The notes under the pieces: generated by a model
Databases searched by the model: none
The model's input: the letters and a program-made list of their open reading frames with translations, nothing else
Told to the model about the DNA's origin: nothing
Shown: piece by piece, positions 11,085-63,315 of the stretch
Position numbering within the stretch: the first letter of the stretch is position 1
Layout: every line of letters starts with the position of its first letter
Translations under genes and position numbers: made by a program
DNA from: Vulcanimicrobiota bacterium
Lineage (GTDB): Bacteria; Vulcanimicrobiota; Vulcanimicrobiia; Eremiobacterales; Eremiobacteraceae
Direction: 5' to 3'
NCBI GenBank assembly: GCA_963805945.1
Contig: CAWDVP010000006.1
Location: 1-64,000 of the forward strand
DNA length: 64,000 nucleotides

Positions 11085-11956
11085 CAGGGTCGTGCCGATC
11101 GAATGAATTCGACCGCTCCATACGCCGTGGTGTCGTGCATCGGGGGCAGGCGGCGCGCGGCGTCAGCGACGTCCGCGAGCGAGACGCCGCGCGCCGCGCG
11201 TTCTGCGGCGACCTCCATCGAGGCGCGCGCGAGCGCGCCCAAGCGGCGCGGCAGACCCGCGGAGCGCGCCCACAGATCGTGCATCGCTTCGGCGTTGAAG
11301 GGCGATCGTTCGCCGGCGTAGCCGGCGCAGCGCAGCCGATGATCGATGAGACCGGCTGCCTCGGCTTCGCTGAGCGGCCCGAGGTCGAGCCACAGCGCGA
11401 CGCGATCGCTCAGATTCGGCCGCCGCGCTATCGCGGCGGCGATCTCCGCCTGGCCCGCGAGACCGATCGCGAGCAGCTTGCGTTCGTCGAGCTGGAAGTT
11501 GAGCAGCGCGCGCAACGTCTCGAGCAGCGGCTCGGGCAACAGCTGCGCTTCGTCGACGAGCAGGATCGCCTGGCGTCCGGATGCCGCGGTGCGTTCGAAC
11601 AGACAGCGCTTCAGGTGTTCGCGGCGCTCGCGTGCGCCGGTGCCGTCGACGCACGGCGGGAAACCGAGTGCCGCTGTCGCAGCCGCGAGCAGCTCCGCCT
11701 CGCTCTCGAACGTCGGGTCGAGGATGAGCCCGACGATGCAACGCCGGTCGTCGAGCAGGCGCGCGGTGACCGCGTTGCACAGCGACGTCTTACCGGCGCC
11801 GACCGGTCCGAGGACGACTGCTAGGCCGCGCCCCTCCGCCAGACATTCGAACAGGCGCCGCCGGTTGCTGGCGGTCGCCATCGTCTCGTAGAAGAACGCA
11901 GGGTCGGCGGTGTCCATAAAGGGGTCGCGCTGCAGACCGAACGCCTCGAGCAGCAT
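11057..11956 (-). CDS. ExeA/GspA-like AAA ATPase
   Basis: FGLQRDPF..TADPAFFY, GPVGAGKT, LLVDEAQ, LAGQAE, GLPRRL. Confidence 0.85.
   Translation of the reverse strand: MLLEAFGLQRDPFMDTADPAFFYETMATASNRRRLFECLAEGRGLAVVLGPVGAGKTSLCNAVTARLLDDRRCIVGLILDPTFESEAELLAAATAALGFPPCVDGTGARERREHLKRCLFERTAASGRQAILLVDEAQLLPEPLLETLRALLNFQLDERKLLAIGLAGQAEIAAAIARRPNLSDRVALWLDLGPLSEAEAAGLIDHRLRCAGYAGERSPFNAEAMHDLWARSAGLPRRLGALARASMEVAAERAARGVSLADVADAARRLPPMHDTTAYGAVEFIRSARPWWQIWKTAP
11096..11120 (+). repeat. Intragenic REP-like palindrome (family B)
   Basis: CGATCGAATGAATTCGACCGCTCCA; read as GAVEFIRS in the ExeA C-terminus. Confidence 0.8.
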
Positions 11957-12052
11957 GCGCGATGGCTTCCAGCGTTTCGCCAGGCGAACCTCTGCTACGC
12001 TCGGCACACGTCACCAGAGGTCCGCGCGCGGGCGCGGGCAGAAGCCGCTCGC

Positions 12053-13006
12053 ATGTCCATCCAGATCAAGCCGCAATTCCCGGACGAGCAGTCGCCAGAC
12101 GGCAGCTTCGTCCGGCAGCCGGATTATTTCCGCGAGTGCGTCACCGCCGACGGGAGCAGCGGCTATCCCGCCGTTGCGGGGCGTTATCATCTCTACGTGT
12201 CGCTCGCCTGCCCCTGGGCCCATCGCACCATCATCATGCGGAAGCTAAAACGCTTGGAGGACGTGATCGGCATGACGGTCGTCGATCCTATCCGCGACGA
12301 CGAGACCGGCTGGGCGTTCCGCGACGGTCCGGGCTTCTCGAAAGACCCGATCAACGGCTTCCATTTCTTGCGCGAAGCGTACCTGGCGACCGATCCGCAG
12401 TACCGCCGCCGCATCACCGTGCCGGTGCTGTGGGATACGCAGACGAAGAAGATCATCTGCAATTCCGACGACGACATCCTGCGCGTGTTCGAGACCCAGT
12501 TCGATGCGCTCGCCGACAACAGCGTGGACTATTTCCCGGAGCGCTTCCGCGCCGAGATCGACGAGCTCAACGAGTACATCTACCAGAACGTCAACGACGG
12601 CGTCTATCGCGCGGGGTTCGCCACCGCGCAGAACGTGTACGAGGCGGCCGTACGACAGGTGTTCGAAGCGCTCGACGTGCTCGAGCAGCGGCTCTCCACC
12701 CGCCGCTACTTGTTCGGCGCGTCGCCGGTCGAGACCGACTGGCGGCTCTTCGTGACGCTCGTGCGCTTCGATCCCGTCTACTACGGGCATTTCAAGTGCG
12801 ATCTGCGGCTCATCGCGCAGTATCCGAATCTGTTCGGCTATCTGCGCGACCTCTACCAATTCAAGGATGTCGCGAGCACGGTGAACTTCGACCACATCAA
12901 GCGGCACTATTACATCACGCACGATGACATCAACCCGACCAAGATCGTGCCGCTAGGCCCGCTGCAGGACCTGACGGCGCCCGCGGGGCGCGAACATCTA
13001 TCATGA
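12053..13006 (+). CDS. yqjG: Glutathionyl-hydroquinone reductase (YqjG/ECM4-like GST)
   Basis: GRYHLYVSLACPWAHR, TVPVLWD, VNDGVYRAGFA, TLVRFDPVY, HIKRHYY. Confidence 0.9.
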   Translation: MSIQIKPQFPDEQSPDGSFVRQPDYFRECVTADGSSGYPAVAGRYHLYVSLACPWAHRTIIMRKLKRLEDVIGMTVVDPIRDDETGWAFRDGPGFSKDPINGFHFLREAYLATDPQYRRRITVPVLWDTQTKKIICNSDDDILRVFETQFDALADNSVDYFPERFRAEIDELNEYIYQNVNDGVYRAGFATAQNVYEAAVRQVFEALDVLEQRLSTRRYLFGASPVETDWRLFVTLVRFDPVYYGHFKCDLRLIAQYPNLFGYLRDLYQFKDVASTVNFDHIKRHYYITHDDINPTKIVPLGPLQDLTAPAGREHLS

Positions 13007-13010
13007 CGTA

Positions 13011-13087
13011 TGTAGGGGTCGATCTTTAGATCGCCCTGCGCACCCGAGATACGTCGCAACGGGCCGACCTAAAGGTCGGCCCCCACA
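13011..13087. repeat. Inverted REP doublet (REPIN-like, family A)
   Basis: TGTAGGGGTCGATCTTTAGATCGCCCT ... GGGCCGACCTAAAGGTCGGCCCCCACA. Confidence 0.8.
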
Positions 13088-13098
13088 TCACGAGGGCG

Positions 13099-13128
13099 TT
13101 GCGTCCCGCAAGCGCCCTATGGTAAGAT
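13099..13128 (+). promoter_or_regulatory. Sigma70-type promoter of rpsB
   Basis: TTGCGT-N18-TAAGAT with extended -10 TG. Confidence 0.55.
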
Positions 13129-13263
13129 AGCCAAGCGCAACTTTAGGACCGAGCGTGGCCCCGCCACGCGACCCGCGCAGATAGGGATGGTCCTAGTGAA
13201 CAGTCGCCTCGGCGACCGTTGGGGTTTGTCCGTCGGGCAGGCCTAGAAAGAGGGTCCTTCACC

Positions 13264-14121
13264 GTGTCTTCCATCATCACCATGAAGCAGCTGCTCGAAG
13301 CGGGCGTCCACTTCGGGCACCAGACGCGTCGTTGGAATCCGAAGATGTCGAAGTACATCTTCCAGGAACGCAACGGCATCTATATCATCGATCTCCAGAA
13401 GACCGTGCTCAAGCTGCGTGAGGTCTATGGCGTCGTCAAAGAGATGGCGCGCCAAGGCAAGACCTTCTTGTACGTCGGCACGAAGAAGCAAGCGCAGGAA
13501 GCGGTGAAAGAAGAAGCCGACCGCGCGGGCATGTTCTACGTCAACCAGCGCTGGCTCGGCGGCACGCTCACCAATTTCCAGACGATCCAGAAGCGCGTCT
13601 CGCGTTTGCGCGAGCTCGAGCGGCAGCGCGACACGGGCGTCTTCGAAGTGCTCACGAAGAAAGAGGTCGGCCGGCTCGAGGACGAGCTGCGCAGGCTCGA
13701 CCGCTTCTTGGGCGGCATCAAAGATATGCCGAAGCTGCCGGACGCGATCTTCATCGTCGATCCGCGCAAGGAACGCATCGCGGTGCTGGAAGCGCGCAAG
13801 CTGAAGATCCCGATCATCGCCGTGATCGACACGAACTGCGATCCCGATGAGATCGACTACGCGATCCCGGGCAACGACGACGCGATCCGCGCGGTCAAGC
13901 TCATGACGGGGAAGATCACCGACGCGATCCTCGAGGGCAAGACCGAAGCCGAATCGGCCGAGTATCTCGGCGCGCCGACCGACGCGAGCGCAAGCCCGAC
14001 ACCGCCGAGCGAGGCGACGCCGGCCGCCGAGGCAGTGCCCACGGAAACAGCGCCGGTGGTGGAGGCAACGACAGTGGTGGAGGCAGCCGCCGTCGCACAG
14101 GAAACACCAGCCGCGACATGA
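13264..14121 (+). CDS. rpsB: 30S ribosomal protein S2
   Basis: [42 protein letters not shown]-rich tail. Confidence 0.98.
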
Positions 14122-14166
14122 CGCCGGTCCCGCGAGCGAAAACGCGGGAACGTAATAGGTGCAGAA

Positions 14167-14190
14167 GGCGGTCGCGAGGCCGCCCTTTGT
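14167..14190 (+). terminator. Hairpin between rpsB and tsf (possible attenuator)
   Basis: GGCGGTC-GCGA-GGCCGCC followed by CTTTGT. Confidence 0.45.
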
Positions 14191-14238
14191 ATGGCCGAGA
14201 GGGAACAAAGGTGATTCGAGGAAATGGGACACGTTGAA

Positions 14239-16097
<1,859 letters not shown>

Positions 16098-16126
16098 TCG
16101 CACTGGCGCACGAGGACCTCATCAAC

Positions 16127-17202: not shown

Positions 17203-17206
17203 ACGT

Positions 17207-18418
17207 ATGCGGCGCATCGCCATTCTGGGTTCCACCGGTTCGATCGGCTCCCAAGCGCTCGATATCATCGGGCGCTATCCGGAGCGCTTCGCCGTCGCCG
17301 GTCTTGCCGCCAACACCAACGTCGCAGCGCTCGCGGCGCAGGCCGGACGCTTTCGGCCGGCGGTGCTCTCGCTTGGATCGGCGTCGCTCGCCGAAGAACT
17401 GCGCGGCAAGCTGAGCTATGTTCCGCGTGCGATCGGCTGGGGCGCCGAGGGCCTCGCGATGGTGGCGGCTGCTTCGGACGCACAGCGGGTGCTCGCGGCC
17501 AGCGACGGCATCGCGGCGCTCGACGCGGTGATGCTCGCCCTCGCGGGCGGCACCGACGTCGCGCTGTCCAACAAGGAACTGCTCGTCGCCGCCGGCGAGC
17601 CGCTGCTCGCGGCCGCGCGAGGATCAGGCGCGCGCGTGCTGCCGGTGGATTCAGAGCACAGCGCGGTGTTCCAATGCCTGCTCGGCGAACGCGTCGAGGA
17701 CGTCGCGAGCGTCGTCCTGACCGCGAGCGGCGGGCCGTTCCGGGAGCTGTCGCTGCTCGACATGCGCGACGTGACGCCGGCGCAGGCGCTCGCGCATCCG
17801 ACATGGGTGATGGGCCAGAAGAACACGATCGATTCGGCGACCATGATGAACAAGGGGCTTGAGGTGATCGAGGCGAGCCGGCTGTTCGGCTTGACGCCCG
17901 AGCAGATCGAGGTCGTCGTGCACCGCCAAAGCGTGGCGCATGCGTTCGTGCGCTTCAAGGACGGCAACGTGAAGGCGCAGTTGGCGGCGCCCGACATGCG
18001 CGTGCCTATCGGCTATGCGCTCGCGTATCCGGAACGGCTGCCCGATGCGGACGCAGGCAAGACCCGTGCGGCGCTCGGTCTCGGGTCCGCGCCCGCCGAG
18101 TTGACGTTCGAACCGCTCGACAATAGTCGCTTCCCAGCAGTGCAGCTGTGCTATCGCGCGCTGCGCGCGGGCGGGACGTGTCCGGCCGTGCTGTCGGCGG
18201 CGAACGAAGAGGCAGGACGCGCCTTTTTGCAAGGGAAAGTGAAGTTCACCGAGATTTGTGCGCTCGTCGAACGCGCGCTGGACGCTCACTCGGCCGAGGC
18301 GCCGACGCTCGAGGCGATCCGCCGGGCCGATGCGTGGGCCCGCGAGGCGACGCTCGAAGAGATCGCGCGACTCCACGGTCGAATAAATTCGACCGCTCCA
18401 GCAATCACTAAAGGATAG
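17207..18418 (+). CDS. dxr: 1-deoxy-D-xylulose 5-phosphate reductoisomerase
   Basis: LGSTGSIG, LPVDSEH, HPTWVMG.KNTIDSATMMNKGLE. Confidence 0.97.
   Translation: MRRIAILGSTGSIGSQALDIIGRYPERFAVAGLAANTNVAALAAQAGRFRPAVLSLGSASLAEELRGKLSYVPRAIGWGAEGLAMVAAASDAQRVLAASDGIAALDAVMLALAGGTDVALSNKELLVAAGEPLLAAARGSGARVLPVDSEHSAVFQCLLGERVEDVASVVLTASGGPFRELSLLDMRDVTPAQALAHPTWVMGQKNTIDSATMMNKGLEVIEASRLFGLTPEQIEVVVHRQSVAHAFVRFKDGNVKAQLAAPDMRVPIGYALAYPERLPDADAGKTRAALGLGSAPAELTFEPLDNSRFPAVQLCYRALRAGGTCPAVLSAANEEAGRAFLQGKVKFTEICALVERALDAHSAEAPTLEAIRRADAWAREATLEEIARLHGRINSTAPAITKG
18376..18400 (+). repeat. Intragenic REP-like palindrome (family B)
   Basis: CGGTCGAATAAATTCGACCGCTCCA, encodes GRINSTAP in the Dxr C-terminus. 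Confidence 0.85.
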
Positions 18419-21041: not shown

Positions 21042-22474
21042 AAGACAAACAACAGGTCAAGAGCATTCCGCCCAAAGCGGATGACCTCTCCGAGTGGTAC
21101 ACGCAGGTCTGCCTGCGCGCGCAGCTTGTGGACTATACGCCTGTGCGCGGCTGCATCGCACTGCGGCCGTACGGTTTCGCGATCTGGGAACTGATCCAGG
21201 CGGAGTTCGACAAGCGCTTCAAAGCGACCGGTCATCAGAACGCCTACTTCCCGCTGCTGATCCCCGAGAGTCTGCTCGTCAAAGAGGCGGAGCACGTCGA
21301 GGGCTTCGCGCCGGAGGTCGCCTGGGTGACCGAGGGCGGCGGCGAAAAGCTCAGCGAGCGGCTGGCGATCCGTCCGACGTCGGAAGTCATCATCGGCACG
21401 ATGTACGCGCGCTGGATCCAGTCGCACCGCGACCTGCCGGTGCTCATCAATCAATGGGTCAACGTGGTGCGCTGGGAGAAGGCGACGCGGCCGTTCCTGA
21501 GGACGCTCGAGTTCTTGTGGCAAGAAGGTCATACCGCGCACGCGACCGAGCGCGAGGCGGCAGAAGAAGTGCAGCGCATGCTCGAGGTCTACCGCGAGGT
21601 GGCTGAGGACGTCGTCGGCCTGCCGGTCATCAAGGGGCGCAAGAGCGACAGTGAAAAATTCGCGGGTGCGGTGGCGACATATGCGATCGAAGCGCTGATG
21701 CCCGATGGCAAGGCGCTGCAAGCCGGCACCTCGCACGAGCTCGGCCAGCATTTCGCCAAGGCGTACGACATCACGTTCACCGACGTCGACGAACAGGTCA
21801 AGCACGTCTGGACCACGTCCTGGGGCGTCTCGTGGCGCATCCTCGGCGGGCTGATCATGGCGCACGGTGACGACCACGGGCTCGTGCTGCCGCCGGCGCT
21901 CGCGCCGCATCAGGTCGTCATCGTGCCTATACTAAAGAAGGGCGACGACAGCGTGCTGCCGGCCGCTCGTGCGCTCTACGAGACGCTCGCGCCGCTGGCG
22001 CGGGTCAAGCTCGACGACCGCCCGGAGCAGAGCGCGGCGTGGAAGTTCAACGAGTGGGAGATGCGCGGCGTGCCGCTGCGCATCGAGATCGGTCCACGCG
22101 ACGTCGCCGCCGGCACGGTGACCGTCGCCCGCCGCGACACGCTCGAGAAGTCCACCGTGCCCGCGGATTCGGTCGTGGCGGCACTTCCCGGCTGGCTTGC
22201 GGATATCGGCACATCGCTCTATGCGCGTGCCAAGAAATATCAGGACGAGCACACGGTGCAAGCGGCCGACCGTGCGACCTTCGTCGAAGCGCTCAAGCGC
22301 CAAGACGGATTCGTGCTCGCCCCCTGGTGCGAGAAGGCCGCGTGCGAGCAGGCGATCAAGGCCGAGACGAGCGCGGTCACGCGCGTCATCGCGGGCCCGG
22401 CGCCGGCCGGCTCGGTCTGTGCGTACAGCGGCGACCCGGCCACCGTCACCGCATATTTTGCGCGCTCGTACTAG
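21038..22474 (+). CDS. proS: Proline--tRNA ligase (archaeal/eukaryotic type)
   Basis: EAEHVEGFAPE, IRPTSE, FLWQEGHT, QAGTSHELGQHF, C-terminal FARSY. Confidence 0.96.
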   Translation: MKDKQQVKSIPPKADDLSEWYTQVCLRAQLVDYTPVRGCIALRPYGFAIWELIQAEFDKRFKATGHQNAYFPLLIPESLLVKEAEHVEGFAPEVAWVTEGGGEKLSERLAIRPTSEVIIGTMYARWIQSHRDLPVLINQWVNVVRWEKATRPFLRTLEFLWQEGHTAHATEREAAEEVQRMLEVYREVAEDVVGLPVIKGRKSDSEKFAGAVATYAIEALMPDGKALQAGTSHELGQHFAKAYDITFTDVDEQVKHVWTTSWGVSWRILGGLIMAHGDDHGLVLPPALAPHQVVIVPILKKGDDSVLPAARALYETLAPLARVKLDDRPEQSAAWKFNEWEMRGVPLRIEIGPRDVAAGTVTVARRDTLEKSTVPADSVVAALPGWLADIGTSLYARAKKYQDEHTVQAADRATFVEALKRQDGFVLAPWCEKAACEQAIKAETSAVTRVIAGPAPAGSVCAYSGDPATVTAYFARSY

Positions 22475-23762
22475 CCGAGGCCGGTTCGCGGCGTTCGGCG
22501 CGGCGTTGTGCGCGGCGTCCCTGTTCGTATTCCCGAGCTTCGCTCGGGCACTACAGACTCCGGGCCCAGCTGGCGGTCGAATAAATTCGACCGCTCCAGC
22601 CGCGGCCTCCGCTCCATTGGCTGCAATTCTCATGTACCATCACGTGTCGGCGACCGTCCAGCCCGGGCGATGGGCCAAAGCTCTCACACTGCAGCCCCAG
22701 GAGTTCGCGCAGCAGCTCTCGTTCCTGCAGGCCCACGGCTGCGAGACCGTCACCGTCGACACGCTGGTCTCGGACGTCCGCGCCGATGCTGTGCGCGGCT
22801 GCGAGATCGCCATCACCTTCGACGACGGTTATGCGGACAATGCGAGCGTCGCCGCACCGCTGCTGAGCGCCGCCGGTGACACCGCCACATTCTATGTCAG
22901 CTCGGGCTTGGTGGGTGCGCCGGACCACGTCAGCGCGCAGGCGCTGCGCGCGCTCGCAGAGGCCGGCTTCCAGATCGGCGCGCACACCGTCAACCACGTC
23001 GACTTGACACTCCAGACCGACGCCGTCGCGCGACACGAGATAGAGGGCTCGCGGGCGGCGCTGCGCGCCTGGACCAGCACGCAAGTCAGCAGCTTCGCCT
23101 ACCCGGCCGGCCAGCACGATGCCCGTGTGGAGCATCTCGTCGCGGCGGCCGGATTCCGCAACGCCATCACGACGCAACCGGGTCTGCTGACCGCGAACGC
23201 GATGGCAGATCCATACGCGTTGCCCCGTTATCGCATCGAGCGCGACACCGGCAGCGCGCTGCTGGCGCGCATCGTCGGACCCGGAGGAACGCCCGGCATG
23301 AGCGCGCCAGAGCGCAGCGCCATCGCGCGCGAGCGCGCCGAGGGGAACGACGCTGCGCTCGCCGAACGAATCGGCGCCGCTTTTCTGAACGCCGGCTATC
23401 CGGAACAGTTGCTCAAGGTGCGCGTGCTGCGCACCGCGGAGTCGACGGTCGTCGGGCTTATGCTCTCGGGGGTGAAGTTCCACGCCGAGGTCGACCGGCA
23501 GCAGTTCGAGCGCGACGTCGGCGGCATGATCGAGCGGGCTTTCGATGCCCGCCCTGATATCGCCGAAGTCGATGTGTGGGCCGAGGTGCCGCTGGCGAAC
23601 CCGCCGACCAGCGACGTCTCGGGCGATACCGCCGAGCCGACGACGCGGACGGTGTTCTCCGCGGCCGTCACGCGCGCCGCGCGCGAGTCGGAGGAGTCGC
23701 GGACCTCGATGCTGGGGACGATGTACTGGGAGAACGGATTCTTGACGAAAGTGCGACCGTGA
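22458..23762 (+). CDS. Exported polysaccharide deacetylase (NodB domain) with extra C-terminal domain
   Basis: TTG start and signal peptide; ILMYHHV, ITFDDGY, GAHTVNH, FAYPAG. Confidence 0.85.
   Translation: MRARTSRGRFAAFGAALCAASLFVFPSFARALQTPGPAGGRINSTAPAAASAPLAAILMYHHVSATVQPGRWAKALTLQPQEFAQQLSFLQAHGCETVTVDTLVSDVRADAVRGCEIAITFDDGYADNASVAAPLLSAAGDTATFYVSSGLVGAPDHVSAQALRALAEAGFQIGAHTVNHVDLTLQTDAVARHEIEGSRAALRAWTSTQVSSFAYPAGQHDARVEHLVAAAGFRNAITTQPGLLTANAMADPYALPRYRIERDTGSALLARIVGPGGTPGMSAPERSAIARERAEGNDAALAERIGAAFLNAGYPEQLLKVRVLRTAESTVVGLMLSGVKFHAEVDRQQFERDVGGMIERAFDARPDIAEVDVWAEVPLANPPTSDVSGDTAEPTTRTVFSAAVTRAARESEESRTSMLGTMYWENGFLTKVRP
22532..22555 (-). repeat. GTAG-type REP hairpin (family C), intragenic
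   Basis: Reverse complement TGTAGTG-CCCGAGC-GAA-GCTCGGG; a near-identical copy lies at about 26543-26564. Confidence 0.65.
22574..22598 (+). repeat. Intragenic REP-like palindrome (family B)
   Basis: CGGTCGAATAAATTCGACCGCTCCA, encodes GRINSTAP. Confidence 0.85.
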
Positions 23763-30122: not shown

Positions 30123-30959
30123 ATGCTAGTGCCCATCCTGGTGACTGTAGCGGTCGACTTTAGCCGACCGTCCGCGTCCCCCTCACCCACACCGGTCCCC
30201 AACGGCATCCACGGCACGTTCGTCAGTCTCGCCGAGACCGCGGCGGGGACGCAGGTGACGTTCGAGCATGCCGGCACTGTCAGCGCACTGCCCTTGCGCA
30301 GCGATGCGCTGATACGCGACCGGCCCCTCGGCGGCGATTGGAAGGTCATCGCCGCGACCGGGCTGCATGCGGGCGCGCCGGTGGTGGTGTTCGTCGGCAG
30401 CGGCGGCGTCACGCAGATCGATTCGCTCTACGAGCAGGTCGCGACGCGCTTCGTGCTCGTCAAGAACGGCTACGGCGTGAACCCGGCGGGTACGATATAC
30501 AAACTCGAAGGCCAAGCAGCGACCACGGGCGCTTCGCTGCCGTCAGGCGCATACGTGCTGCTGCGCGTGGATCCAGGGCGTTCGCTTGCCTACGATCTGA
30601 TCGCATCGCGCACGCCGTTCGCGCAAGCCGGCGGCCCGCCGAAGGTCAACGTCACAGTCGTGGTGCTGGTGCCCGTCAACACCGGGCAGCTCGACACCAT
30701 CTACATGTCGACGGATGCGCTGAGCTGGACGCCGAACGCCATCCGCATGTCGCCGCTGCCGGGCAATCGCTGGACGGTCACGTTGTCGGTGACAGGCGGT
30801 ACGTTGCTGAAGTACAAATACACGCGTGGGTCCTGGTCGAGCGACGAGCGCGATCTGGCGGGCAACGAGATCCCGAACCGGACGCTCACCGCGAATCCTA
30901 AAGGGCCGACGCAGACCGTGCAAGACGTGGTCGCTCGCTGGGCGGACCGTTCGAGCTGA
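30123..30959 (+). CDS. Exported protein with C-terminal CBM20-like domain
   Basis: VPVNT...IY...W.PNAIRM...YKYTRGSWSSDE....EIPNR...QDVVARW. Confidence 0.7.
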   Translation: MLVPILVTVAVDFSRPSASPSPTPVPNGIHGTFVSLAETAAGTQVTFEHAGTVSALPLRSDALIRDRPLGGDWKVIAATGLHAGAPVVVFVGSGGVTQIDSLYEQVATRFVLVKNGYGVNPAGTIYKLEGQAATTGASLPSGAYVLLRVDPGRSLAYDLIASRTPFAQAGGPPKVNVTVVVLVPVNTGQLDTIYMSTDALSWTPNAIRMSPLPGNRWTVTLSVTGGTLLKYKYTRGSWSSDERDLAGNEIPNRTLTANPKGPTQTVQDVVARWADRSS

Positions 30960-32481: not shown

Positions 32482-33255
32482 ATGACGCAGCGCTACGCCA
32501 TCATCGGCGATCCCGTCGCGCACTCCCGCTCTCCCGCCATGCACAACGCCGCGTTCGCCGCGTGCGGCATCGACGCGACGTATGAGGCGTTTCGCGTGCG
32601 CACCGCCGGTCTCGAAGCGTTCGTCGTCGAAGCGCGCCGCTTGCCGCTCGCGGGCTTCAGCGTCACCACGCCGCTCAAAGAATCTATTCTCACATATCTG
32701 GACGAGGTGAGCGACGGAGCTGCGGCGATCAAAGCGGTCAATACGGTGCGCGTCGACAATGCGCGCTGGATCGGCGACAACACGGACGGGGCTGGTTTCG
32801 TCGCCGGCCTCGCGGACATGTGGCAGTGGACGCCTGCCGGCGCGAGCGCGCTCGTCGCGGGTAGCGGGCCGGCGGCTCGCGCCATCGCGCAAGCGCTGCG
32901 CTCGGCCGGCGCCGTGACGCTCTCATGCTGGGCGCGCGATGCGAACGCCGCTCGGGCGATCGGGCCGCCGCCGCAAAGGCCGCCAGACATCTTCGTCAGT
33001 GCGCTGCCCGCCGTCGCGGAGCTGCCGGATGAAGTACTGGAGTTCATCGGGCCGGCCACCAAGGTCGTGGACGTCAACTATGCGGCGGCGCGGTCGCCGG
33101 TGCCGGTGGGCCTTGGAAGCGCTCGCAGCGACGGCCTCGCCATGCTGCTCCATCAGGGCGCGCTGGCGTTCACCTGGTGGACCGGCCTGCCCCCGCCGCT
33201 GGCCGCTATGCGCCAGGCCCTCGGGGCGGTCGAATCGGGAGGGTCGGTCGAATAA
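32482..33255 (+). CDS. aroE: Shikimate dehydrogenase
   Basis: GDPVAHSRSPAMHN, SVTTPLKE, AVNT, GDNTD, DGLAMLLHQG. Confidence 0.92.
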   Translation: MTQRYAIIGDPVAHSRSPAMHNAAFAACGIDATYEAFRVRTAGLEAFVVEARRLPLAGFSVTTPLKESILTYLDEVSDGAAAIKAVNTVRVDNARWIGDNTDGAGFVAGLADMWQWTPAGASALVAGSGPAARAIAQALRSAGAVTLSCWARDANAARAIGPPPQRPPDIFVSALPAVAELPDEVLEFIGPATKVVDVNYAAARSPVPVGLGSARSDGLAMLLHQGALAFTWWTGLPPPLAAMRQALGAVESGGSVE

Positions 33256-33269
33256 ATTCGACCGCTCCA
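33245..33269 (+). repeat. REP-like palindrome (family B) supplying the aroE stop codon
   Basis: CGGTCGAATAAATTCGACCGCTCCA; the TAA at 33253-33255 ends aroE. Confidence 0.85.
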
Positions 33270-33313
33270 TGCCCGTCACACCAGGCCCCAGGGGCGGGGT
33301 ACCGGCCCCGAGA

Positions 33314-33341
33314 TAACGAACCGCGCTGTCCCTGCCGATAC
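33314..33341 (+). promoter_or_regulatory. Candidate sigma28-like promoter of pilT
   Basis: TAAC-N16-GCCGATAC. Confidence 0.5.
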
Positions 33342-33400
33342 AGTACTGAGGGCGGGTATTAGGCCCTATTCGGCTATGGGTGCGAGGCGGTAACGGGACA

Positions 33401-34489
33401 ATGGCTGCAAATGTAAGCGACCTGCTCGGTCTACGGATGGACGAGCTGATGCGCGTGACGATCGAACGCGGCGCATCGGACCTCCACATGAGCGTCGGTC
33501 TACCACCCACCCTGCGCATCGACGGGCGGCTCGCGCCGACGGAATTCCCGAAGCTTTCGCCCGACGATACCAAGCGGTTGGTCTACAGCATCCTGACAGA
33601 CCAGCAAAAAGAGCGCTTCGAGAAGAACCTCGAGCTCGATTTCTCGCACGGCCTCAAAGGCTTCGGCCGCTTCCGCGTCAACGCGTTCAAGCAGCGCGGC
33701 GTCATCGGCGCGGCCTTCCGCGCCATCCCGTCGACCGTGCCACCGCTTTCGACGCTCAATCTGCCAACCGTCATGGCGGACCTCACGACGCGCCCGCAAG
33801 GTCTCGTGCTCGTCACCGGGCCGACCGGCTCGGGCAAGTCGACGGCGCTCGCATCGATGCTCGACGTCATCAACTCGAGCGTGGCGCGGCACATCATGAC
33901 GATGGAAGACCCGATCGAGTATCTCCACTTCCATAAGATGTCGATCGTCAACCAGCGCGAGGTCGGCCAGGACACGCATTCCTTCCCGAACGCCTTACGC
34001 TCGGCGCTGCGCGAAGACCCGGACGTCGTGCTGGTCGGCGAAATGCGCGACATGGAGACCATCGCGGTGACGCTGACGATCGCCGAGACCGGTCACCTCG
34101 TGTACGCGACGCTGCACACCTCGGACGCCGCGCAGACCATCGACCGCATCATCGACGTCTTCCCGGCCCACCAGCAGCAGCAGATCCGCGTGCAGCTCGC
34201 CTCGGTCATCGAGGCGGTCGTGTGCTTGCGGCTGCTGCCGCACGCCTCGGGGGTCGGCCGCGTGCCGGCGGCCGAGGTCATGGTGGCGACGCCGGCCATC
34301 CGCAACCTCATCCGCGAGAACAAGACCCACCAGATCCACAATTCGATCGTGACCAGCCGCGGCATGCACATGCAGACCTTTGACATGTCGCTCCGCGACC
34401 TGGTGCGCAAACACATGATCACGCCTGAAGAGGCGTTCAACGCGTCCATGCACCCCGAAGAGCTGCGTAAGCTCATCGAGGGTGTCTAG
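33401..34489 (+). CDS. pilT: Type IV pilus retraction ATPase
   Basis: ASDLH, GPTGSGKST, EDPIEY, LREDPDVVLVGEMRD, AIRNLIRE. Confidence 0.96.
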   Translation: MAANVSDLLGLRMDELMRVTIERGASDLHMSVGLPPTLRIDGRLAPTEFPKLSPDDTKRLVYSILTDQQKERFEKNLELDFSHGLKGFGRFRVNAFKQRGVIGAAFRAIPSTVPPLSTLNLPTVMADLTTRPQGLVLVTGPTGSGKSTALASMLDVINSSVARHIMTMEDPIEYLHFHKMSIVNQREVGQDTHSFPNALRSALREDPDVVLVGEMRDMETIAVTLTIAETGHLVYATLHTSDAAQTIDRIIDVFPAHQQQQIRVQLASVIEAVVCLRLLPHASGVGRVPAAEVMVATPAIRNLIRENKTHQIHNSIVTSRGMHMQTFDMSLRDLVRKHMITPEEAFNASMHPEELRKLIEGV

Positions 34490-56164: not shown

Positions 56165-56233
56165 TGTAGGGGCCGATCTTCAGATCGGCCCTCGCGCCGT
56201 CGATCAGAGTCGATCTAAAGATCGACCCCTACA
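56165..56233. repeat. Inverted REP doublet (REPIN-like, family A)
   Basis: TGTAGGGGCCGATCTTCAGATCGGCCCT ... AGAGTCGATCTAAAGATCGACCCCTACA between convergent genes. Confidence 0.85.
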
Positions 56234-57258: not shown

Positions 57259-57296
57259 AACGATGACTCCCTTACGTCTATTGCAAAAGCCAACAA

Positions 57297-57326: not shown

Positions 57327-57355
57327 GGGCGCGCGCGGGGACTTGAGGCTTCTCT

Positions 57356-59745: not shown

Positions 59746-60588
59746 GTGCGACCCAATCTTGCTGTGGTGTTTTCGCTCGTCTTCGCGCTGTGCGCCGCAT
59801 CGGCGCAGGCTGATTCTCTTTCCCACACCGTCGTCTCCGGCGACTCACTCTCAATGATCGCCTCGCATTACGGCGTCTCCGTCGCGGCGCTGGAAGCACG
59901 CAACCATCTTTCGGATTCGAGCGTGCTCTCGCTCGGCCAACGCATCGTGATCCCCGGAGCGGTGGTCGCAGCACGGCCGGCAGCGCATAAGAGCGTCGCC
60001 ATCACCGCAAAGCATTCGGCTGCGACGAAGCATTCGGCTGAGGTCGGCGCCGCGCTCTACGCAGCCCGCGTCGGCGCCGCTCGATCGCATCGTGGGCTCT
60101 CCCCGGCTTCGCCCGCGGGTGCCGTGATGGCGAACATCGCATTGTGGCAGGCGACGCATGCCGGCAGCACCGCGCCGCCGCTCCTGTTCATCGACCCATC
60201 GTCCGTCGCCGGGCACATGCTGGCGATAGATGCCAAGATCCGGCACACCGCGCTGCGCTATCTCGGCGTGCCATACTCCTGGGGCGGGACCGGCTTCGGC
60301 GGCGTGGACTGTTCCGGCTTCGTGCAGTCGGTGTTCGCGTCGAACGGCATCCACTTGCCGCGCATGGCCGACGAGCAGTTCGCGGTGGGCAAGCGCATCG
60401 CGATGAGCCTGCTGCTGCCGGGCGACCTGGTGTTCTTCGAGACCTATACGAGCGGCGCGTCGCACGTCGGCATCTATATCGGCGGCGGCAAGTTCATCCA
60501 CGCATCCACGCGCGGAGTCGTCATCGACGCGCTGTCCATGGACTACTATTCAAGCCGCTATCTCGGAGCGCGCCGCCTCGTCCAATAG
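59746..60588 (+). CDS. LysM + NlpC/P60 cell-wall endopeptidase
   Basis: Signal peptide, HTVVSGDSL..IA, GVPYSWGG...DCSGF, HVGIY, HAS. Confidence 0.93.
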   Translation: MRPNLAVVFSLVFALCAASAQADSLSHTVVSGDSLSMIASHYGVSVAALEARNHLSDSSVLSLGQRIVIPGAVVAARPAAHKSVAITAKHSAATKHSAEVGAALYAARVGAARSHRGLSPASPAGAVMANIALWQATHAGSTAPPLLFIDPSSVAGHMLAIDAKIRHTALRYLGVPYSWGGTGFGGVDCSGFVQSVFASNGIHLPRMADEQFAVGKRIAMSLLLPGDLVFFETYTSGASHVGIYIGGGKFIHASTRGVVIDALSMDYYSSRYLGARRLVQ

Positions 60589-60608
60589 CCGCTGAGGGCA
60601 GGGCACCA

Positions 60609-61794
60609 ATGGCGACCACTCACGTGCCGCTGCTCGTCATCGGAGCCGGGCCCTATGGTCTCGCCACCGCCGCATGTGCGAAGGCCGCGGGCATCGATGC
60701 CCTCGTGCTGGGCGAGCCCATGGGGTTTTGGCGCAACTGCATGCCGGATCGGATGCTGCTGCGTTCGGGCCCGCAATGGCAGCTCGACGCCGCTAAGGTC
60801 CACACCATCTTCGCGTATCTAGAGGCTCGCGGCATCGATCCGGCGGATGTGACGCCGCTGCCGGTCAGCCTCTTCATCGCCTACGCGCAATGGTTCTGTG
60901 AGACGACCGAGATCCGAATGTCGCCTCGCATGGTGAGCGAGCTACAGCGATCGGACCAGGGGTTTCGAGATGCTCCTCGACGACGGCGAGCGGCTCACCG
61001 CGAACGCGGTCGTCGCCGCCCCCGGCATCGCGAGCTTCGCGAACATCCCGACGTGGGCTGCCGAAGCGCTATCTCCAGCGCGCTACTCTCACACGCGCGA
61101 TCTCAGCGCGGTTCGAAGGCGCTGCGCGGCTCGCGCTGCGCGATCTTCGGGGGACGCATGAGCGCTTTCGAATGGGCCGCGCTGCTGGCGGAGGATGGTG
61201 CCGAAGCTGTGCACGTCGTCTATCGTCACGACACGCCGGCCTTTGCGACGAGCTACTGGGACTTCGTCGAGCCGCTGATGATGCAGACGCTCGAGAACCC
61301 GGGGTGGTATCGCGGTTTGCCGGCCGCCGAGCGAGATGCCGTGGCGAACCGTTTTTGGGCCGAGGGCAGGCTGAAGCTGGAGCCGTGGCTGACGCCGCGA
61401 CTTGCGACGCCGACGATCCGCCTCCACCCGCACGCGGAGGTCCGCGACTGCCGGGAACTGCCGTCCGGCGTGGTCCAGATCGATCTCACGGACGGCGAGA
61501 GGCTCGTCGTCGATCACGTCATCCTCGCCACCGGCTACAAAGCAGAGTATCGAAGGTGCCATATCTGCGCGGCGTGCTCGCTCGCGCTTGCCGTGACGGA
61601 CGGCTCGCCGCGAGCTCGACACGCATTTCCAGTCGAGCGTGCCCGATCTCTACGTGACGGGTTTTGCGGCAGCGCGGGATTTCGGACCGTTCTTCGGGTT
61701 CGTGCGGGGATGCACGACCGCCGCGACCCTCATCGTCGACGCGCTGCTATCGCGCGCGCAAGGCGATGGACGGGATTCGCGCGGACAGCGCTAG
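60609..61794 (+). CDS. FAD/NAD(P)-dependent oxidoreductase (several frameshifts)
   Basis: IGAGPYGL, GGRMSAFE, ILATGY, DFGPFFGFV. Confidence 0.75.
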
Positions 61795-61815
61795 AAAAAG
61801 CCTCGCTGACGTCGA

Positions 61816-61888
61816 TGGGGCGTCGCCAAGTTGGTAAGGCACCAGCCTTTGGAGCTGGCATTCGAAGGTTCGAGTCCTTCCGCCCCAG
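61816..61888 (+). tRNA. tRNA-Gln(TTG), CCA not encoded
   Basis: Acceptor TGGGGCG/CGCCCCA, anticodon arm CCAGC-CTTTGGA-GCTGG, T-loop GGTTCGAGTCC. Confidence 0.95.
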
Positions 61889-61891
61889 CAC

Positions 61892-61917
61892 GCATCCGGC
61901 TCTTCATCCCACGCGTA
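61892..61917 (+). promoter_or_regulatory. Candidate autoregulatory ECF promoter
   Basis: GCATCC-N16-CGTA about 20 nt upstream of the SigK-like gene. Confidence 0.45.
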
Positions 61918-61936
61918 CCTATATCCGAGGGATATA

Positions 61937-62509
61937 GTGACGACGGCTCAGACCGACGATCAACTGCTCGCGGCGCTCGCCTTGGGCGAGCTAGCGGCAT
62001 TGGACGGCCTGTACGAACGGTATGCCAGGACGGCGTACTCGCTCGCCTATCGCATCGTCGGCGAGCGCGGGGCCGCTGAAGACGTCGTCCAAGACGCCTT
62101 CCTCTCTGTGTGGCGGCAGGCGAAATCATATCGGCGCGAGCGCGGCAACCCGCGCACGTGGCTCATGGCGATCGTGCATCACCGCGCGATCGATAGGCTG
62201 CGCGCGAGCGCCTCGAGTGGCGTCACCATCCCGCTCGACCAGCTGCCCGACGGACCGGCTGAAACCCCAGGCGTGTGGCAACAGGTCTGGACCGGCCTGC
62301 GCGGAGATGCGGTGCGCAGCGCCATCGAAACCTTGCCGCCGGAGCAGAAGAAGAGCATCGAGCTCGCCTACTTCTCCGGCTATACGCATGTCGAGATCGC
62401 GGAGCTGATGGGCGTGCCGCTGGGCACGGTGAAAGGACGATTACGGCACGGCCTGCACAAGTTGAAAGCATTCCTCGAGGGGCCTGGCATGGAGATGTCA
62501 GGCACATGA
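61937..62509 (+). CDS. ECF sigma factor (SigK-like)
   Basis: AEDVVQDAF..VWR, HHRAIDRLR, LAYFSGYTH.EIA...PLGTVKGR. Confidence 0.92.
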   Translation: MTTAQTDDQLLAALALGELAALDGLYERYARTAYSLAYRIVGERGAAEDVVQDAFLSVWRQAKSYRRERGNPRTWLMAIVHHRAIDRLRASASSGVTIPLDQLPDGPAETPGVWQQVWTGLRGDAVRSAIETLPPEQKKSIELAYFSGYTHVEIAELMGVPLGTVKGRLRHGLHKLKAFLEGPGMEMSGT

Positions 62510-63315
62510 ACAACGGCATGCACGTAACCGATCTCTCCGCGTCGTACGCGCTCGGCGCGCTGACGCCCGGCGAACAGGCGCTGGTAGCGCAGCATTGCGC
62601 GGGCTGCGCCGCATGCCGCGCCGACGTGCTTGAGATGACGCAGATCGCGAGCGCGTTGCCGCTCGCCTGCGAAAGCGTCGCGCCGGCAGCCGCCTTGCGC
62701 GATCGCATCATGGAAGCGGCGCGGGCCAACGAAGTTCTCGGTCGAATGAATTCGACCGCTCCATCCAACGTCAGGCCACTCCCACGTCCGCAAGGGCAGA
62801 ATTGGGTCGCTGGGCTTGCCGCCGCAGCAGCCATCGTGATGGGCGTCGTCGCGATGCAGGCATCGCAGCAGCGCGACGCGCTCGCCACGCGGATCGCCTC
62901 CATGAACGACCAGCTCGCGACGCTGCAACAGGCGAACGATCAGCTTTCCGTACAGGCCGAACAGGGGCACGCGGTTATGACGGCCCTCGCGAGCGGCACG
63001 TACTGGACGATGGGTCCGCAAGCGGATCGTCACGGCGGTATGTGGCGCTATGCGGTCGTGCAGCCACCGCAACGCGGGCACAACGGCATGCTGCTGGCGA
63101 CCGTGCCCGAGGTGCCGCGCGGCATGGCGTATCAAGTGTGGGTGGTGCGCGGCGGGCGGCCGCATCCGGCGGGCGCGGTGATGCACGGCGGCATGACGAT
63201 GATGGATATGAAGATGCCGCTGCTCAAGGGCGACGTCGTCGCCTTCAGCATGGAGCCGATGCCGGGCAACAGTCCCGCCCCCACCTCGCCGTACCTGGTG
63301 CGGATGCCCATTTGA
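62506..63315 (+). CDS. Anti-sigma factor (zinc finger + RskA-like)
   Basis: YALGAL...HCAGCAAC, TM helix, AYQVW, SMEP...PT. Confidence 0.88.
   Translation: MNNGMHVTDLSASYALGALTPGEQALVAQHCAGCAACRADVLEMTQIASALPLACESVAPAAALRDRIMEAARANEVLGRMNSTAPSNVRPLPRPQGQNWVAGLAAAAAIVMGVVAMQASQQRDALATRIASMNDQLATLQQANDQLSVQAEQGHAVMTALASGTYWTMGPQADRHGGMWRYAVVQPPQRGHNGMLLATVPEVPRGMAYQVWVVRGGRPHPAGAVMHGGMTMMDMKMPLLKGDVVAFSMEPMPGNSPAPTSPYLVRMPI
62739..62763 (+). repeat. Intragenic REP-like palindrome (family B)
   Basis: CGGTCGAATGAATTCGACCGCTCCA, encodes GRMNSTAP in the anti-sigma linker. Confidence 0.85.

What the first reader, a model, noticed from the sequence alone, without database searches (positions are those of the whole stretch)
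11096..62763. A 25-nt palindromic element sitting inside five unrelated protein-coding genes (peptide GR[I/M]NSTAP)
Seen: CG(G/A)TCGAAT(A/G)AATTCGACCGCTCCA occurs at 11096, 18376, 22574, 33245 and 62739, always in the same chromosomal orientation and always overlapping a CDS. It is read as GRINSTAP in the Dxr C-terminus and the deacetylase N-terminal linker, GRMNSTAP in the anti-sigma linker, and GAVEFIRS on the opposite strand in ExeA; it also supplies the aroE stop codon. On the minus strand it reads TGGAG + 8-bp stem + TT(T/C)A loop, the same layout and loop as the intergenic TGTAG REPs in this window. Known: REPs are normally extragenic and spread by RAYT transposases; coding palindromic insertions are best known from Rickettsia RPEs. 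Inference: a REP sub-family with a GGAG foot that colonises tolerant termini and linkers of proteins.
Basis: partly seen in the sequence, partly recalled or inferred. Interest (0 to 1): 0.8.

Follow-up and report, generated by a model that had tools for sequence, protein, structure and literature searches.

The report
Mobile-type DNA hairpins translated inside genes
A 25-base hairpin repeat of the REP type, present about 160 times in this soil bacterium's small genome, often lies in frame inside real genes and adds a short floppy peptide to protein loops, linkers and tails; the same kind of thing has already been described in other bacteria.

Summary
The 25-mer occurs 5 times in the window, with 0 expected, and every copy touches a real CDS.

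It belongs to a genome-wide REP-type hairpin family that I call family A. There are 160 copies at up to 3 mismatches on both strands: 88 intergenic, 31 at least 90 nt inside predicted genes, and 41 at gene edges.

Pfam and ortholog alignments show the deep copies are read in frame in ValS, CarB, RibH, an AddA-like helicase, RodZ, RskA and others. They always lie in variable loops, linkers or tails.

Congeners without the family lack these peptides. The family was found in one genus of 100 sampled in the phylum Eremiobacterota/Vulcanimicrobiota.

- Copies are still about 3-fold enriched in non-coding DNA.
- The GGAG foot is not what admits them to genes. Five of six frames are stop-free, and a GTAG-footed family with the same property is also genic.
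- The shared orientation of the five copies is local chance.

Intragenic REPs, including ones that supply stop codons, are in print (PMC3733652). This is therefore a new member of a known kind. No RAYT flanked by this family was found.

The parts
11096..11120 (+). Family A REP copy. It has 1 mismatch (G to A in the left stem arm). It is read on the minus strand as YGAVEFIRS.
   Evidence: It lies in a variable linker of the ExeA-like ATPase, before a conserved C-terminal RPWWQxWKxA(R/P) motif. G002 has a REP at the same place.
11057..11956 (-). ExeA-like AAA ATPase CDS (299 aa), host of the first copy.
   Evidence: Pfam AAA_22 at residues 42-173. Orthologs at 68-74% identity in 6 congeners. Its stop overlaps the next gene's start: GTGA here, ATGA in the congeners (read from the alignment).
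18376..18400 (+). Family A REP copy, exact. It encodes GRINSTAP in the Dxr C-terminal tail.
   Evidence: Pfam homology ends at residue 380. REP-derived tails also occur in G002, G005 and G006, but not in G001, G003 or G004.
17207..18418 (+). dxr CDS (403 aa).
   Evidence: Pfam DXP_reductoisom, DXP_redisom_C and DXPR_C. tblastn relatives match residues 1 to about 388 only.
22574..22598 (+). Family A REP copy, exact. It encodes GRINSTAP in the linker after the signal-peptide-like segment of a polysaccharide deacetylase.
   Evidence: G006 has a stem-variant copy (GRVNSTAP) in the same linker. Five other congeners have none.
22532..22555 (+). Family C REP copy (CCCGAGCTTCGCTCGGGCACTACA). It encodes FPSFARAL(Q) at the end of the signal-peptide-like segment.
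   Evidence: It folds at -7.9 kcal/mol as DNA.
22458..23762 (+). Polysaccharide deacetylase CDS, with the start revised to TTG 22458.
   Evidence: The in-frame TTG is conserved in all 7 species and is followed by a hydrophobic segment. Changes upstream of ATG 22632 are synonymous third-position changes. Pfam Polysacc_deac_1.
33245..33269 (+). Family A REP copy, exact. Its loop TAA (33253-33255) is the aroE stop.
   Evidence: G000 AroE carries an 8-residue extension (AVESGGSVE) compared with the GL/RL ends of four congeners. A half-REP (GCGGTCGAAT) lies just upstream.
32482..33255 (+). aroE CDS (257 aa).
   Evidence: Pfam Shikimate_dh_N and SDH_C.
62739..62763 (+). Family A REP copy, exact. It encodes GRMNSTAP at residues 79-86 of the anti-sigma factor.
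   Evidence: It lies between zf-HC2 (7-38) and RskA_C (104-261). The G005 and G002 orthologs have no REP in this variable linker.
62506..63315 (+). RskA-type anti-sigma factor CDS (269 aa).
30146..30170 (-).
   Evidence: It lies 23 nt inside the predicted start of gene 30123-30959. Whether it is coding was not resolved.
13011..13087 (.). Intergenic inverted doublet of family B REPs (REPIN-like).
   Evidence: It folds at -11.4 kcal/mol as DNA.
56165..56233 (.). Second intergenic family B inverted doublet.

Best explanation
Family A is a REP-type short interspersed repeat. It is an 8-bp hairpin with a T(A/G)AA loop and a 5-nt foot (CTCCA, less often CTACA; TGGAG or TGTAG on the other strand). 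It arose or expanded in one lineage of a single Eremiobacterota genus.

Copies land all over the genome and purifying selection decides which survive. Five of the six reading frames through the element have no stop, and the encoded 7-9 residues are small and polar (GR[IM]NSTAP, ERSNSFDR, RSNKFDRS, GAVEFIRP). Copies that fall in frame in variable surface loops, inter-domain linkers, the stretch after a signal peptide, or C-terminal tails are therefore near-neutral. They persist and are translated as part of the host protein. Copies in the sixth frame survive only at the very 3' end, where the loop TAA/TGA becomes the new stop codon.

Shown here: the family, its hairpin, its genus-restricted distribution, its in-frame position in real genes, and the absence of the peptides in REP-free congeners.

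Inferred: the copies spread as single-stranded hairpins cut and pasted by a RAYT-type (HUH Y1) transposase acting in trans, and the selection filter explains where they are found.
For: Family and structure:
- There are 170 non-overlapping copies at up to 4 mismatches, of which 73 fit the consensus exactly.
- Among 308 anchor hits (each locus is read on both strands), 276 keep Watson-Crick pairing at the two inner stem pairs. Three compensatory types occur: AG/CT 45, AC/GT 16, GA/TC 6.
- The hairpin folds at -8.5 to -8.9 kcal/mol as DNA, z -4 to -5.

Real genes, read in frame:
- 31 of 160 copies lie at least 90 nt from both ends of predicted genes. For nearly all of these, coding potential is best in the same frame on both flanks.
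- I scanned 26 deep host proteins plus the window's RskA, 27 hosts in all. In 17 of them Pfam-matched residues lie on both sides of the repeat. Examples are ValS residue 594 between tRNA-synt_1 and Anticodon_1, CarB residue 477 inside CPSase_L_D3, and RibH with two copies.
- At 12 of 13 aligned sites the REP-free congeners (G001, G003, G004) lack the peptide, and the site is a variable-length region.

Frames:
- Of 64 fully genic copies, 63 use the five open frames and 1 uses the stop frame. That one is a loop variant without a stop.
- 8 further copies in the stop frame end their gene at the loop stop.
- Family B has only 3 of 6 frames open (my reading of its consensus) and has 3 of 151 copies deep in genes. 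Family C has 5 of 6 open and 19 of 70 deep.

Distribution:
- G000 has 102 copies, G002 52, G005 123 and G006 110. G001 and G003 have 1 each and G004 has 0.
- Matches occur in 6 of 301 genomes and 1 of 100 genera of the phylum.
- The REP-bearing species lie on one side of a branch with 98/98 support.

Age structure:
- 8 of the 13 aligned G000 sites are occupied in G000 only, and these are mostly exact copies.
- The sites shared with other species (ExeA, ValS, CarB) carry diverged copies.

RAYT link:
- The same genome holds a Y1_Tnp gene flanked by family B REPs, which have the same foot-stem-TTYA-loop layout.
- For a group 3 RAYT, passages of PMC8266576 report that only the last two positions of GTAG were strongly selected, and that its REP loop is TTTA. 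GGAG keeps that AG.
Against: - No RAYT is flanked by family A. The only Y1_Tnp gene in G000 is flanked by family B.
- Neither PF01797 nor the G000 RAYT protein finds a match in G002, G005 or G006, which are 97-98% complete and hold 52-123 copies, many of them exact.
- Most copies carry GGAG, not the canonical GTAG: 105 CTCCA against 19 CTACA among anchor hits with a clear foot.
- No empty-site and filled-site pair was clean enough to define the inserted unit or a target site. Net length differences were +21 nt (ValS, DUF885) and +12 nt.
- ValS and CarB carry the repeat in the same loop but in different orientations and frames in sister species. Random insertion plus selection does not predict this by itself.
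- The genic and intergenic counts rest on my own codon-model gene calls, which mis-set at least one start.
- Translation is inferred from reading-frame continuity, not observed.
Confidence: 0.75

Rival explanations
1. The hairpins inside genes are kept by positive selection because they do something. Examples would be an mRNA or DNA structure that pauses translation or transcription at domain boundaries, a binding site for a host protein, or a useful surface peptide.
For: - 25 of 36 deep copies keep a perfect 8-bp stem.
- Several copies sit exactly at domain boundaries: ValS, AddA-like, RodZ, MocR-like, RskA.
- The same loops of ValS and CarB are occupied in all REP-bearing species examined.
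- Among the five open frames, use is uneven: 29, 13, 12, 7 and 2 of 63. By my arithmetic chi-square is about 33 with 4 degrees of freedom.
Against: - Perfect stems are somewhat less frequent in deep copies (25 of 36) than in intergenic ones (76 of 92).
- Orthologous intragenic copies decay. The ValS stems are mismatched in G000 and G002, the Dxr copy in G006 is truncated, and the CarB copy has 3 mismatches.
- REP-free congeners do without them in every gene examined.
- Hosts are functionally unrelated.
- Uneven frame use is also expected from plain tolerance of the most linker-like peptide.
Confidence: 0.1
2. The family is REP-like in shape only and is not moved by a RAYT. It would multiply by another route, such as an unrecognised enzyme, or copying between hairpins by recombination or gene conversion at existing palindromes.
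For: - No Y1_Tnp was found in 3 of the 4 species that carry many exact copies.
- The foot is mostly GGAG.
- Copies are mostly singletons: 26 of 160 are in pairs, against 45 of 151 for family B, which forms 18 inverted doublets.
- The same sites are re-occupied in other orientations or by another family: ValS, CarB, and DUF885 with a family-C-like insert in G005 and G006.
Against: - All of these are metagenome-assembled genomes, and repeat-flanked genes are often left unassembled. G000 itself is 82% complete.
- RAYT-less REP families are on record. [quoted passage not shown]
- The layout matches a family that does flank a RAYT in the same genome.
- G002 copies often carry the canonical CTACA/GTAG foot.
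Confidence: 0.2
3. The overlaps with genes are artefacts. The ORFs would be spurious or mis-started in a 66% G+C genome, and the repeats would in fact be extragenic.
For: - High-GC genomes have many long spurious ORFs: 239 ORFs of at least 100 aa in 64 kb.
- My caller mis-placed one start.
- 4 of 26 deep hosts have no Pfam family.
- Copies within about 25 nt of predicted starts (10 'edge5' and 4 'partial5') may lie upstream of the true starts.
Against: - Pfam domains lie on both sides of the repeat in 17 of 27 hosts.
- Conserved protein sequence continues in the same frame after the repeat in all 13 ortholog alignments. Examples are the ExeA C-terminal WWQxW motif and the ValS anticodon domain.
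- The repeats occur at orthologous sites in four independent assemblies.
Confidence: 0.03

Closest known systems
GTAG-tagged REPs, including the intragenic ones catalogued by Di Nocera, De Gregorio and Rocco 2013 (PMC3733652). I read the abstract, passages and part 1 of 3 of supplementary file 3.
   Same: - A 20-40 bp stem-loop with a conserved terminal tag, in many interspersed copies, with sub-families that have compensatory stem changes.
- Several families can share one genome.
- Most copies lie downstream of ORFs, and some supply the stop codon.
- A minority lie wholly inside ORFs, encode 7-8 residues per single element, and sit in linkers, loops or ends.
- Hosts listed there include tRNA synthetases, UvrD/Rep helicases, pseudouridine synthases, E2 subunits and, in Opitutus terrae, Dxr. 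The same protein classes are hosts here.
- The paper notes that the tag can be degenerate (GYAG, GTRG, GTGG and others).
   Different: - A different sequence and phylum (Eremiobacterota/Vulcanimicrobiota).
- The tag is mostly GGAG, a variant not among those named in the passages I read.
- No RAYT is flanked by this family.
- By my calls the genic share is high for a 2.3 Mb genome: 72 of 160 copies touch a CDS.
- Here the insertions could be checked against REP-free species of the same genus.
Rickettsia palindromic elements (RPEs). Known to me from the passage of PMC3733652 that cites Ogata and colleagues; the rest is recalled.
   Same: Palindromic repeats inserted in frame into genes that remain functional, adding a peptide segment in tolerant places.
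   Different: RPE-1 elements are much longer (about 100-150 bp, recalled). The short RPE-4 and RPE-6 are classed as CGTC-type REPs in that paper. The sequences are unrelated. The hosts are obligate intracellular Alphaproteobacteria.
REPtrons and REPINs: a RAYT (TnpA-REP) gene with its flanking REPs, often as inverted doublets. From PMC8266576 I read passages. The REPIN concept is recalled from Bertels and Rainey.
   Same: Family B in this genome is a textbook case. A single Y1_Tnp gene carries two copies on each side, there are 18 inverted doublets, and 120 of 151 copies are intergenic. Family A shares its foot-stem-TTYA-loop design. The group 3 REP of Marinomonas described in that paper also has a TTTA loop and depends mainly on the last two tag positions.
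   Different: Family A does not flank the RAYT and is mostly single. It persists, with many exact copies, in three species where no RAYT was found.

Membership tests
REP (repetitive extragenic palindrome), GTAG superfamily | Short (20-50 nt) palindrome able to form a stem-loop as a single strand | tested here: met
   An 8-bp stem with a 4-nt loop, -8.5 to -8.9 kcal/mol as DNA; 0 of 200 shuffles fold as well. 276 of 308 anchor hits pair at the inner stem positions, with three compensatory types.
REP (repetitive extragenic palindrome), GTAG superfamily | High copy number, dispersed over the chromosome on both strands | tested here: met
   160 copies at up to 3 mismatches, 85 + and 75 -, on all 8 contigs.
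REP (repetitive extragenic palindrome), GTAG superfamily | Conserved GTAG tetranucleotide next to the stem | tested here: inconclusive
   The foot is CTCCA (GGAG) in 105 anchor hits and CTACA (GTAG) in 19. Many G002 copies carry CTACA. The AG of the tag is kept. Degenerate tags are accepted in PMC3733652, but GGAG is not named in the passages read.
REP (repetitive extragenic palindrome), GTAG superfamily | Predominantly extragenic, near the 3' ends of ORFs | tested here: inconclusive
   88 of 160 copies are intergenic, a 3.3-fold enrichment over the 16.7% non-coding share. Another 27 are at or across 3' ends, and 31 are deep in genes. These are my own gene calls.
REPtron / REPIN-RAYT system | A RAYT (Y1_Tnp, PF01797) gene flanked by copies of the same REP | tested here: not met
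   The only PF01797 match (C3:119708-120025, 33.3 bits) is flanked by family B copies. There was no PF01797 match and no homolog of that protein in G001-G006. All genomes are metagenome-assembled, and G000 is 82% complete.
REPtron / REPIN-RAYT system | Copies mostly organised as inverted doublets (REPINs/BIMEs) | tested here: not met
   26 of 160 family A copies have a neighbour within 80 nt, and 7 pairs are in -+ orientation. For family B the figures are 45 of 151 copies and 18 -+ pairs.
Rickettsia palindromic elements (RPE) | Sequence membership in one of the described RPE families of Rickettsia | not tested
   No RPE sequence was compared. Phylum, length and sequence context differ. The resemblance is in behaviour only.
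Intragenic REPs in the sense of PMC3733652 | REP wholly inside an ORF of a known protein, in frame, with the protein otherwise intact | tested here: met
   Pfam domains lie on both sides in 17 of 27 hosts. Frame and homology continue after the repeat in 13 of 13 ortholog alignments.

The most novel reading that the evidence does not exclude
Family A keeps multiplying in species that have no RAYT at all, and it is site-directed. It would re-enter or flip within the same few protein loops (ValS, CarB, DUF885, the deacetylase linker) in different orientations and frames in sister species. That would point to an unrecognised hairpin-targeting insertion or in-place inversion mechanism acting inside essential genes.
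Probability: 0.15. Interest if true: 0.6.

Novelty: new member of a known kind. Interest (0 to 1): 0.35.

Why it matters
It extends in-frame REP colonisation of housekeeping proteins to an uncultivated soil phylum. It does so in a setting with a natural control: three species of the same genus lack the family, so each insertion can be compared with an empty site.

That makes the genus a good place to ask how much small-peptide insertion essential enzymes tolerate, and how REP families spread when no RAYT is visible.

There are practical consequences too. Such repeats mislead start and stop calling. They create new C-termini and stop codons (8 genes end in the loop stop). They can also look like conserved 'motifs' shared by unrelated proteins.

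Tried and rejected
- My first hairpin pattern had the arms set wrongly and found nothing. It was replaced by scripts.
- Replication-linked orientation in G000: I binned GC skew, gene strand and repeat strand in 40-kb bins. There was no bias for any of the three families, so the five + copies are a local run.
- Orientation relative to genes: 45 same and 27 opposite for genic family A copies. I drew no conclusion.
- Expression: no RNA holder was listed for window 62300-63400, and only three DNA runs held small shares of 0.07-0.10. I did not lay reads.
- The insertion unit and target site could not be defined, because flanks between species are 25-30% diverged.
- I suspected that a repeat split the E2-like gene at C6:278414-279250. 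The frame change lies about 150 nt downstream of the repeat and is unrelated to it.
- I considered whether the family behaves like DNA uptake sequences, which are also frequent in coding DNA (recalled, not checked). I set this aside because copy number is low and compensatory stem changes point to a hairpin.
- Literature: searches. The search for 'Eremiobacterota' plus 'palindromic' listed 10 papers. None was on REPs judging by title and abstract start; I did not read them.

Full report
**Observation**

The 25-mer CGRTCGAATRAATTCGACCGCTCCA occurs at 11096, 18376, 22574, 33245 and 62739. All five copies are on the + strand, and no further match appears at up to 3 mismatches. None was seen in 100 dinucleotide-preserving shuffles. 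Each copy is an 8-bp hairpin with a T(A/G)AA loop, followed by CTCCA. As single-stranded DNA it folds at -8.5 to -8.9 kcal/mol, and 0 of 200 shuffles fold as well.

The window is contig C6:1-64000 of a 2.31 Mb, 8-contig genome of 66% G+C, estimated 82% complete. The best named relatives of its Dxr are MAGs labelled Vulcanimicrobiota or Eremiobacteraceae, at 60-69% identity.

**The family**

A fuzzy search of the whole genome gave 188 raw hits. After removing palindromic double hits, 170 loci remained at up to 4 mismatches, and 73 of them fit the consensus exactly. At up to 3 mismatches there are 160 copies, 85 + and 75 -.

I anchored on the outer stem and read each locus on both strands, giving 308 hits. 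Of these, 276 are Watson-Crick at the two inner pairs, and three compensatory types are present: AG/CT 45, AC/GT 16, GA/TC 6. The foot is CTCCA in 105 hits and CTACA in 19.

A 14-mer census showed two more hairpin families with the same design:
- Family B: GGGCCGA(T/C)CT(A/G)AAG(A/G)TCGGCCCCTACA.
- Family C: CCCGAGC...GCTCGGGCACTACA.

**Are the five window copies in genes?**

Yes, all five.

1. *RskA-type anti-sigma factor (62506-63315).* GRMNSTAP is residues 79-86, between zf-HC2 (7-38) and RskA_C (104-261). The G005 ortholog aligns on both sides and has a different, longer linker there.

2. *ExeA-like ATPase (11057-11956, minus strand).* YGAVEFIRS lies in a variable stretch, and a C-terminal motif RPWWQxWKxA(R/P) conserved in all seven species follows it. 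The frame must therefore run through the repeat. G002 has a REP at the same place.

3. *Dxr.* Pfam homology ends at residue 380, and the last 13 residues are REP-derived. The tails of G002, G005 and G006 are also REP-derived, whereas those of G001, G003 and G004 are not.

4. *AroE.* The protein has an 8-residue extension and ends at the loop TAA. The orthologs end GL/RL/SR* or, in G005, GIAAP*.

5. *Deacetylase.* My caller started it at ATG 22632, which left the repeat outside the gene. However:
   - The codons upstream of that ATG differ between species at synonymous third positions.
   - All seven species have an in-frame TTG followed by a basic then hydrophobic, signal-peptide-like segment.
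   - In the window that TTG is at 22458.
   - The family A copy then lies in the linker after the signal-like segment.
   - A family C copy (22532-22555) encodes the end of that segment.
   - G006 has a stem-variant copy (GRVNSTAP) in the same linker.

**Genome-wide position**

No gene finder was available. I trained a codon log-odds model on long ORFs with GC3 > GC1 > GC2 and selected 2203 non-overlapping genes covering 83.3% of the genome. Positions by family:

| Family | Copies | Intergenic | Deep (≥90 nt from both ends) | Within 90 nt of 3' end | Within 90 nt of 5' end | Across 3' end | Across 5' end |
|---|---|---|---|---|---|---|---|
| A | 160 | 88 | 31 | 17 | 10 | 10 | 4 |
| B | 151 | 120 | 3 | 0 | 1 | 25 | 2 |
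| C | 70 | 36 | 19 | 4 | 3 | 6 | 2 |

Family A is thus about 3.3-fold enriched in the 16.7% of DNA called non-coding. It is depleted in deep coding DNA (19% of copies against 64% of the genome), but far from excluded.

For the fully genic copies, the flanks score best in the host frame on both sides in nearly all deep cases.

**Independent check of the deep hosts**

I scanned 26 deep family A hosts and the five window proteins against Pfam. Twenty-two of the 26 have families. Counting the RskA protein as well, 17 of 27 hosts have Pfam-matched residues on both sides of the repeat:
- ValS: residue 594, between tRNA-synt_1 (ends 567) and Anticodon_1 (starts 613).
- CarB: residue 477, inside CPSase_L_D3.
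- RibH: two copies inside DMRL_synthase.
- AddA-like helicase-nuclease: between UvrD_C and PDDEXK_1.
- RodZ and a MocR-like regulator: in their inter-domain linkers.
- RqcH/NFACT: three family A copies and one family C copy.
- Also penicillin amidase, DUF885, a GT4 glycosyltransferase, PMT, RluD-like, CoxM-like, amine oxidase and Cu-oxidase_4.

**Comparison with relatives**

The family was found only in the window's genus:

| Genome | Copies (≤1 mismatch) |
|---|---|
| G000 | 102 |
| G002 | 52 |
| G005 | 123 |
| G006 | 110 |
| G001 | 1 |
| G003 | 1 |
| G004 | 0 |

No copy was found in 34 other genomes of the family and class. Across a sample of the phylum, matches occurred in 6 of 301 genomes and 1 of 100 genera.

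In a tree of three concatenated proteins (1111 gap-free columns), the four REP-bearing species lie on one side of a branch with 98/98 support. The tree is unrooted. A few REP-coded columns may be included.

I fetched syntenic DNA from the congeners and aligned 13 G000 sites at protein and DNA level:
- At 12 sites at least one REP-free congener aligns. None has the peptide, and the site is always a variable-length region.
- For RskA only G002 and G005 were recovered, and neither has the repeat there.
- Five sites are also occupied in another REP-bearing species: ExeA, Dxr, the deacetylase, ValS and CarB.
- Eight sites are occupied in G000 only, mostly by exact copies.

This pattern fits continued insertion after the species split, followed by decay of older copies.

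**Frames**

By my reading of the consensus, only one of the six frames through the element has a stop: GTC GAA TAA/TGA. Frame use among the 64 fully genic copies was as follows:

| Peptide | Copies |
|---|---|
| GR[IM]NSTAP | 29 |
| GAVEFIRP | 13 |
| ERSNSFDR | 12 |
| RSNKFDRS | 7 |
| WSGRI(H/Y)ST | 2 |
| Stop frame (a loop variant without a stop) | 1 |

- Eight more copies lie in the stop frame at gene ends and supply the stop codon.
- Two opposite-strand genes overlap the element by 5 nt at its foot end. For the CTACA-footed copy (C6:419864) I read the stop as the TAG of the TGTAG foot.
- Two genes stop 3 nt after the element.
- Family B, by my reading of its consensus, has stops in three frames and is almost never genic. 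Family C has one closed frame and is often genic.

The simplest account is that selection removes disruptive copies and leaves those that add a short polar peptide where the fold allows it.

**How it spreads**

This step is inferred. G000 has one Y1_Tnp gene (33.3 bits, cut-off 23). Two family B copies flank it on each side, making a classical REPtron. Family B occurs only in G000: 96 copies at up to 1 mismatch, and 0 in six congeners.

No PF01797 match and no homolog of that protein was found in G001-G006. Yet G002, G005 and G006 hold many exact family A copies. Three possibilities remain: a RAYT is missing from these assemblies, the family is moved in trans by something else, or it is no longer mobile there.

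Passages of PMC8266576 report that one group 3 RAYT depends mainly on the last two tag positions, and that its REP has a TTTA loop. GGAG and the TTYA loop seen here are compatible with that.

**What remains odd**

- In ValS the same loop holds the element in one orientation in G000 and G002 (DGRLNSTAP, DGRVNSTAT) and in the opposite orientation in G005 (HGAVDFIRP). The total length is the same in G002 and G005.
- In CarB the same loop reads RSAEVDRS in G000, ERSNSFDR in G002 and WSGRI(Y/H)ST in G005 and G006.
- In DUF885, G000 has a family A copy where G005 and G006 have a family-C-like insert.

Possible explanations are an ancestral inverted doublet resolved differently in each lineage, repeated insertion next to existing hairpins, or very few permissive sites. 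I could not tell these apart.

**Prior knowledge**

Di Nocera et al. 2013 (PMC3733652; I read the abstract, passages and part 1 of 3 of supplementary file 3) describe GTAG and CGTC REP families. They report:
- REP termini that supply stop codons.
- REPs wholly inside ORFs in several species.
- The most GTAG cases in Opitutus terrae, with about 70 rows in the part I read.
- Hosts that include Dxr, E2 subunits, helicases and tRNA-related enzymes.

They argue for tolerance in linkers and loops. They equate the short Rickettsia RPE-4 and RPE-6 with CGTC REPs.

I found and checked that doublet independently.

My searches found nothing on REPs in Eremiobacterota.

**Verdict**

Noticed in passing
G000 contig C3:119549-120181 (locus L001 about 1340-1975): A classical REPtron. 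The genome's only Y1_Tnp (RAYT-like) gene (127 aa, HIHVVM motif region) has two family B REPs on each side. Family B (96 copies at up to 1 mismatch) occurs in this species only, among 7 of the genus.
   Followed up: partly
Sister genome G005, contigs C2, C3, C4 (listing): Strong strand bias of family A copies: 25 forward against 98 reverse. Every listed copy on C3 and C4 is on the reverse strand. G002 is also skewed (41 against 11). G000 shows no such bias. A link to replication direction is possible but was not examined.
   Followed up: no
window 22532-22555: A family C REP (TGTAG foot) encodes the end of the signal-peptide-like segment (FPSFARAL) of the deacetylase. That protein's N-terminus therefore carries two different REPs 18 nt apart.
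   Followed up: partly
G000 contig C6:278414-282551: An OdhA/Kgd-like E2-E1 gene appears split by a frame change near 279250, inside the E2 catalytic domain. This is either an assembly error or a pseudogene. Its Pro/Ala-rich linkers hold a family C copy and two diverged family A-like copies in tandem (AVEQTRPQQ, PVEQVRPLQ).
   Followed up: partly
G000 contigs C3:93708, C6:295751, C7:8792: Three predicted genes begin inside the repeat, on the strand opposite the + form (MERSNSFDR... or VERSNSFDR...). I did not test whether these starts are real. I also did not test whether the GGAG of the foot acts as a ribosome-binding site for downstream genes.
   Followed up: no
window 11057-11060: The ExeA-like gene's stop overlaps the start of the next minus-strand gene (GTGA here, ATGA in six congeners), which suggests translational coupling. 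My gene caller did not call that downstream gene (ORF 10713-11084).
   Followed up: no
window 33256-33440 and the congener loci: Synteny downstream of aroE differs between G000 and the congeners. The break coincides with the REP and a half-REP at the aroE 3' end.
   Followed up: no
window 61816-61888: One tRNA gene (Rfam RF00005, 64.5 bits). It was the only Rfam match in the window at gathering threshold.
   Followed up: no
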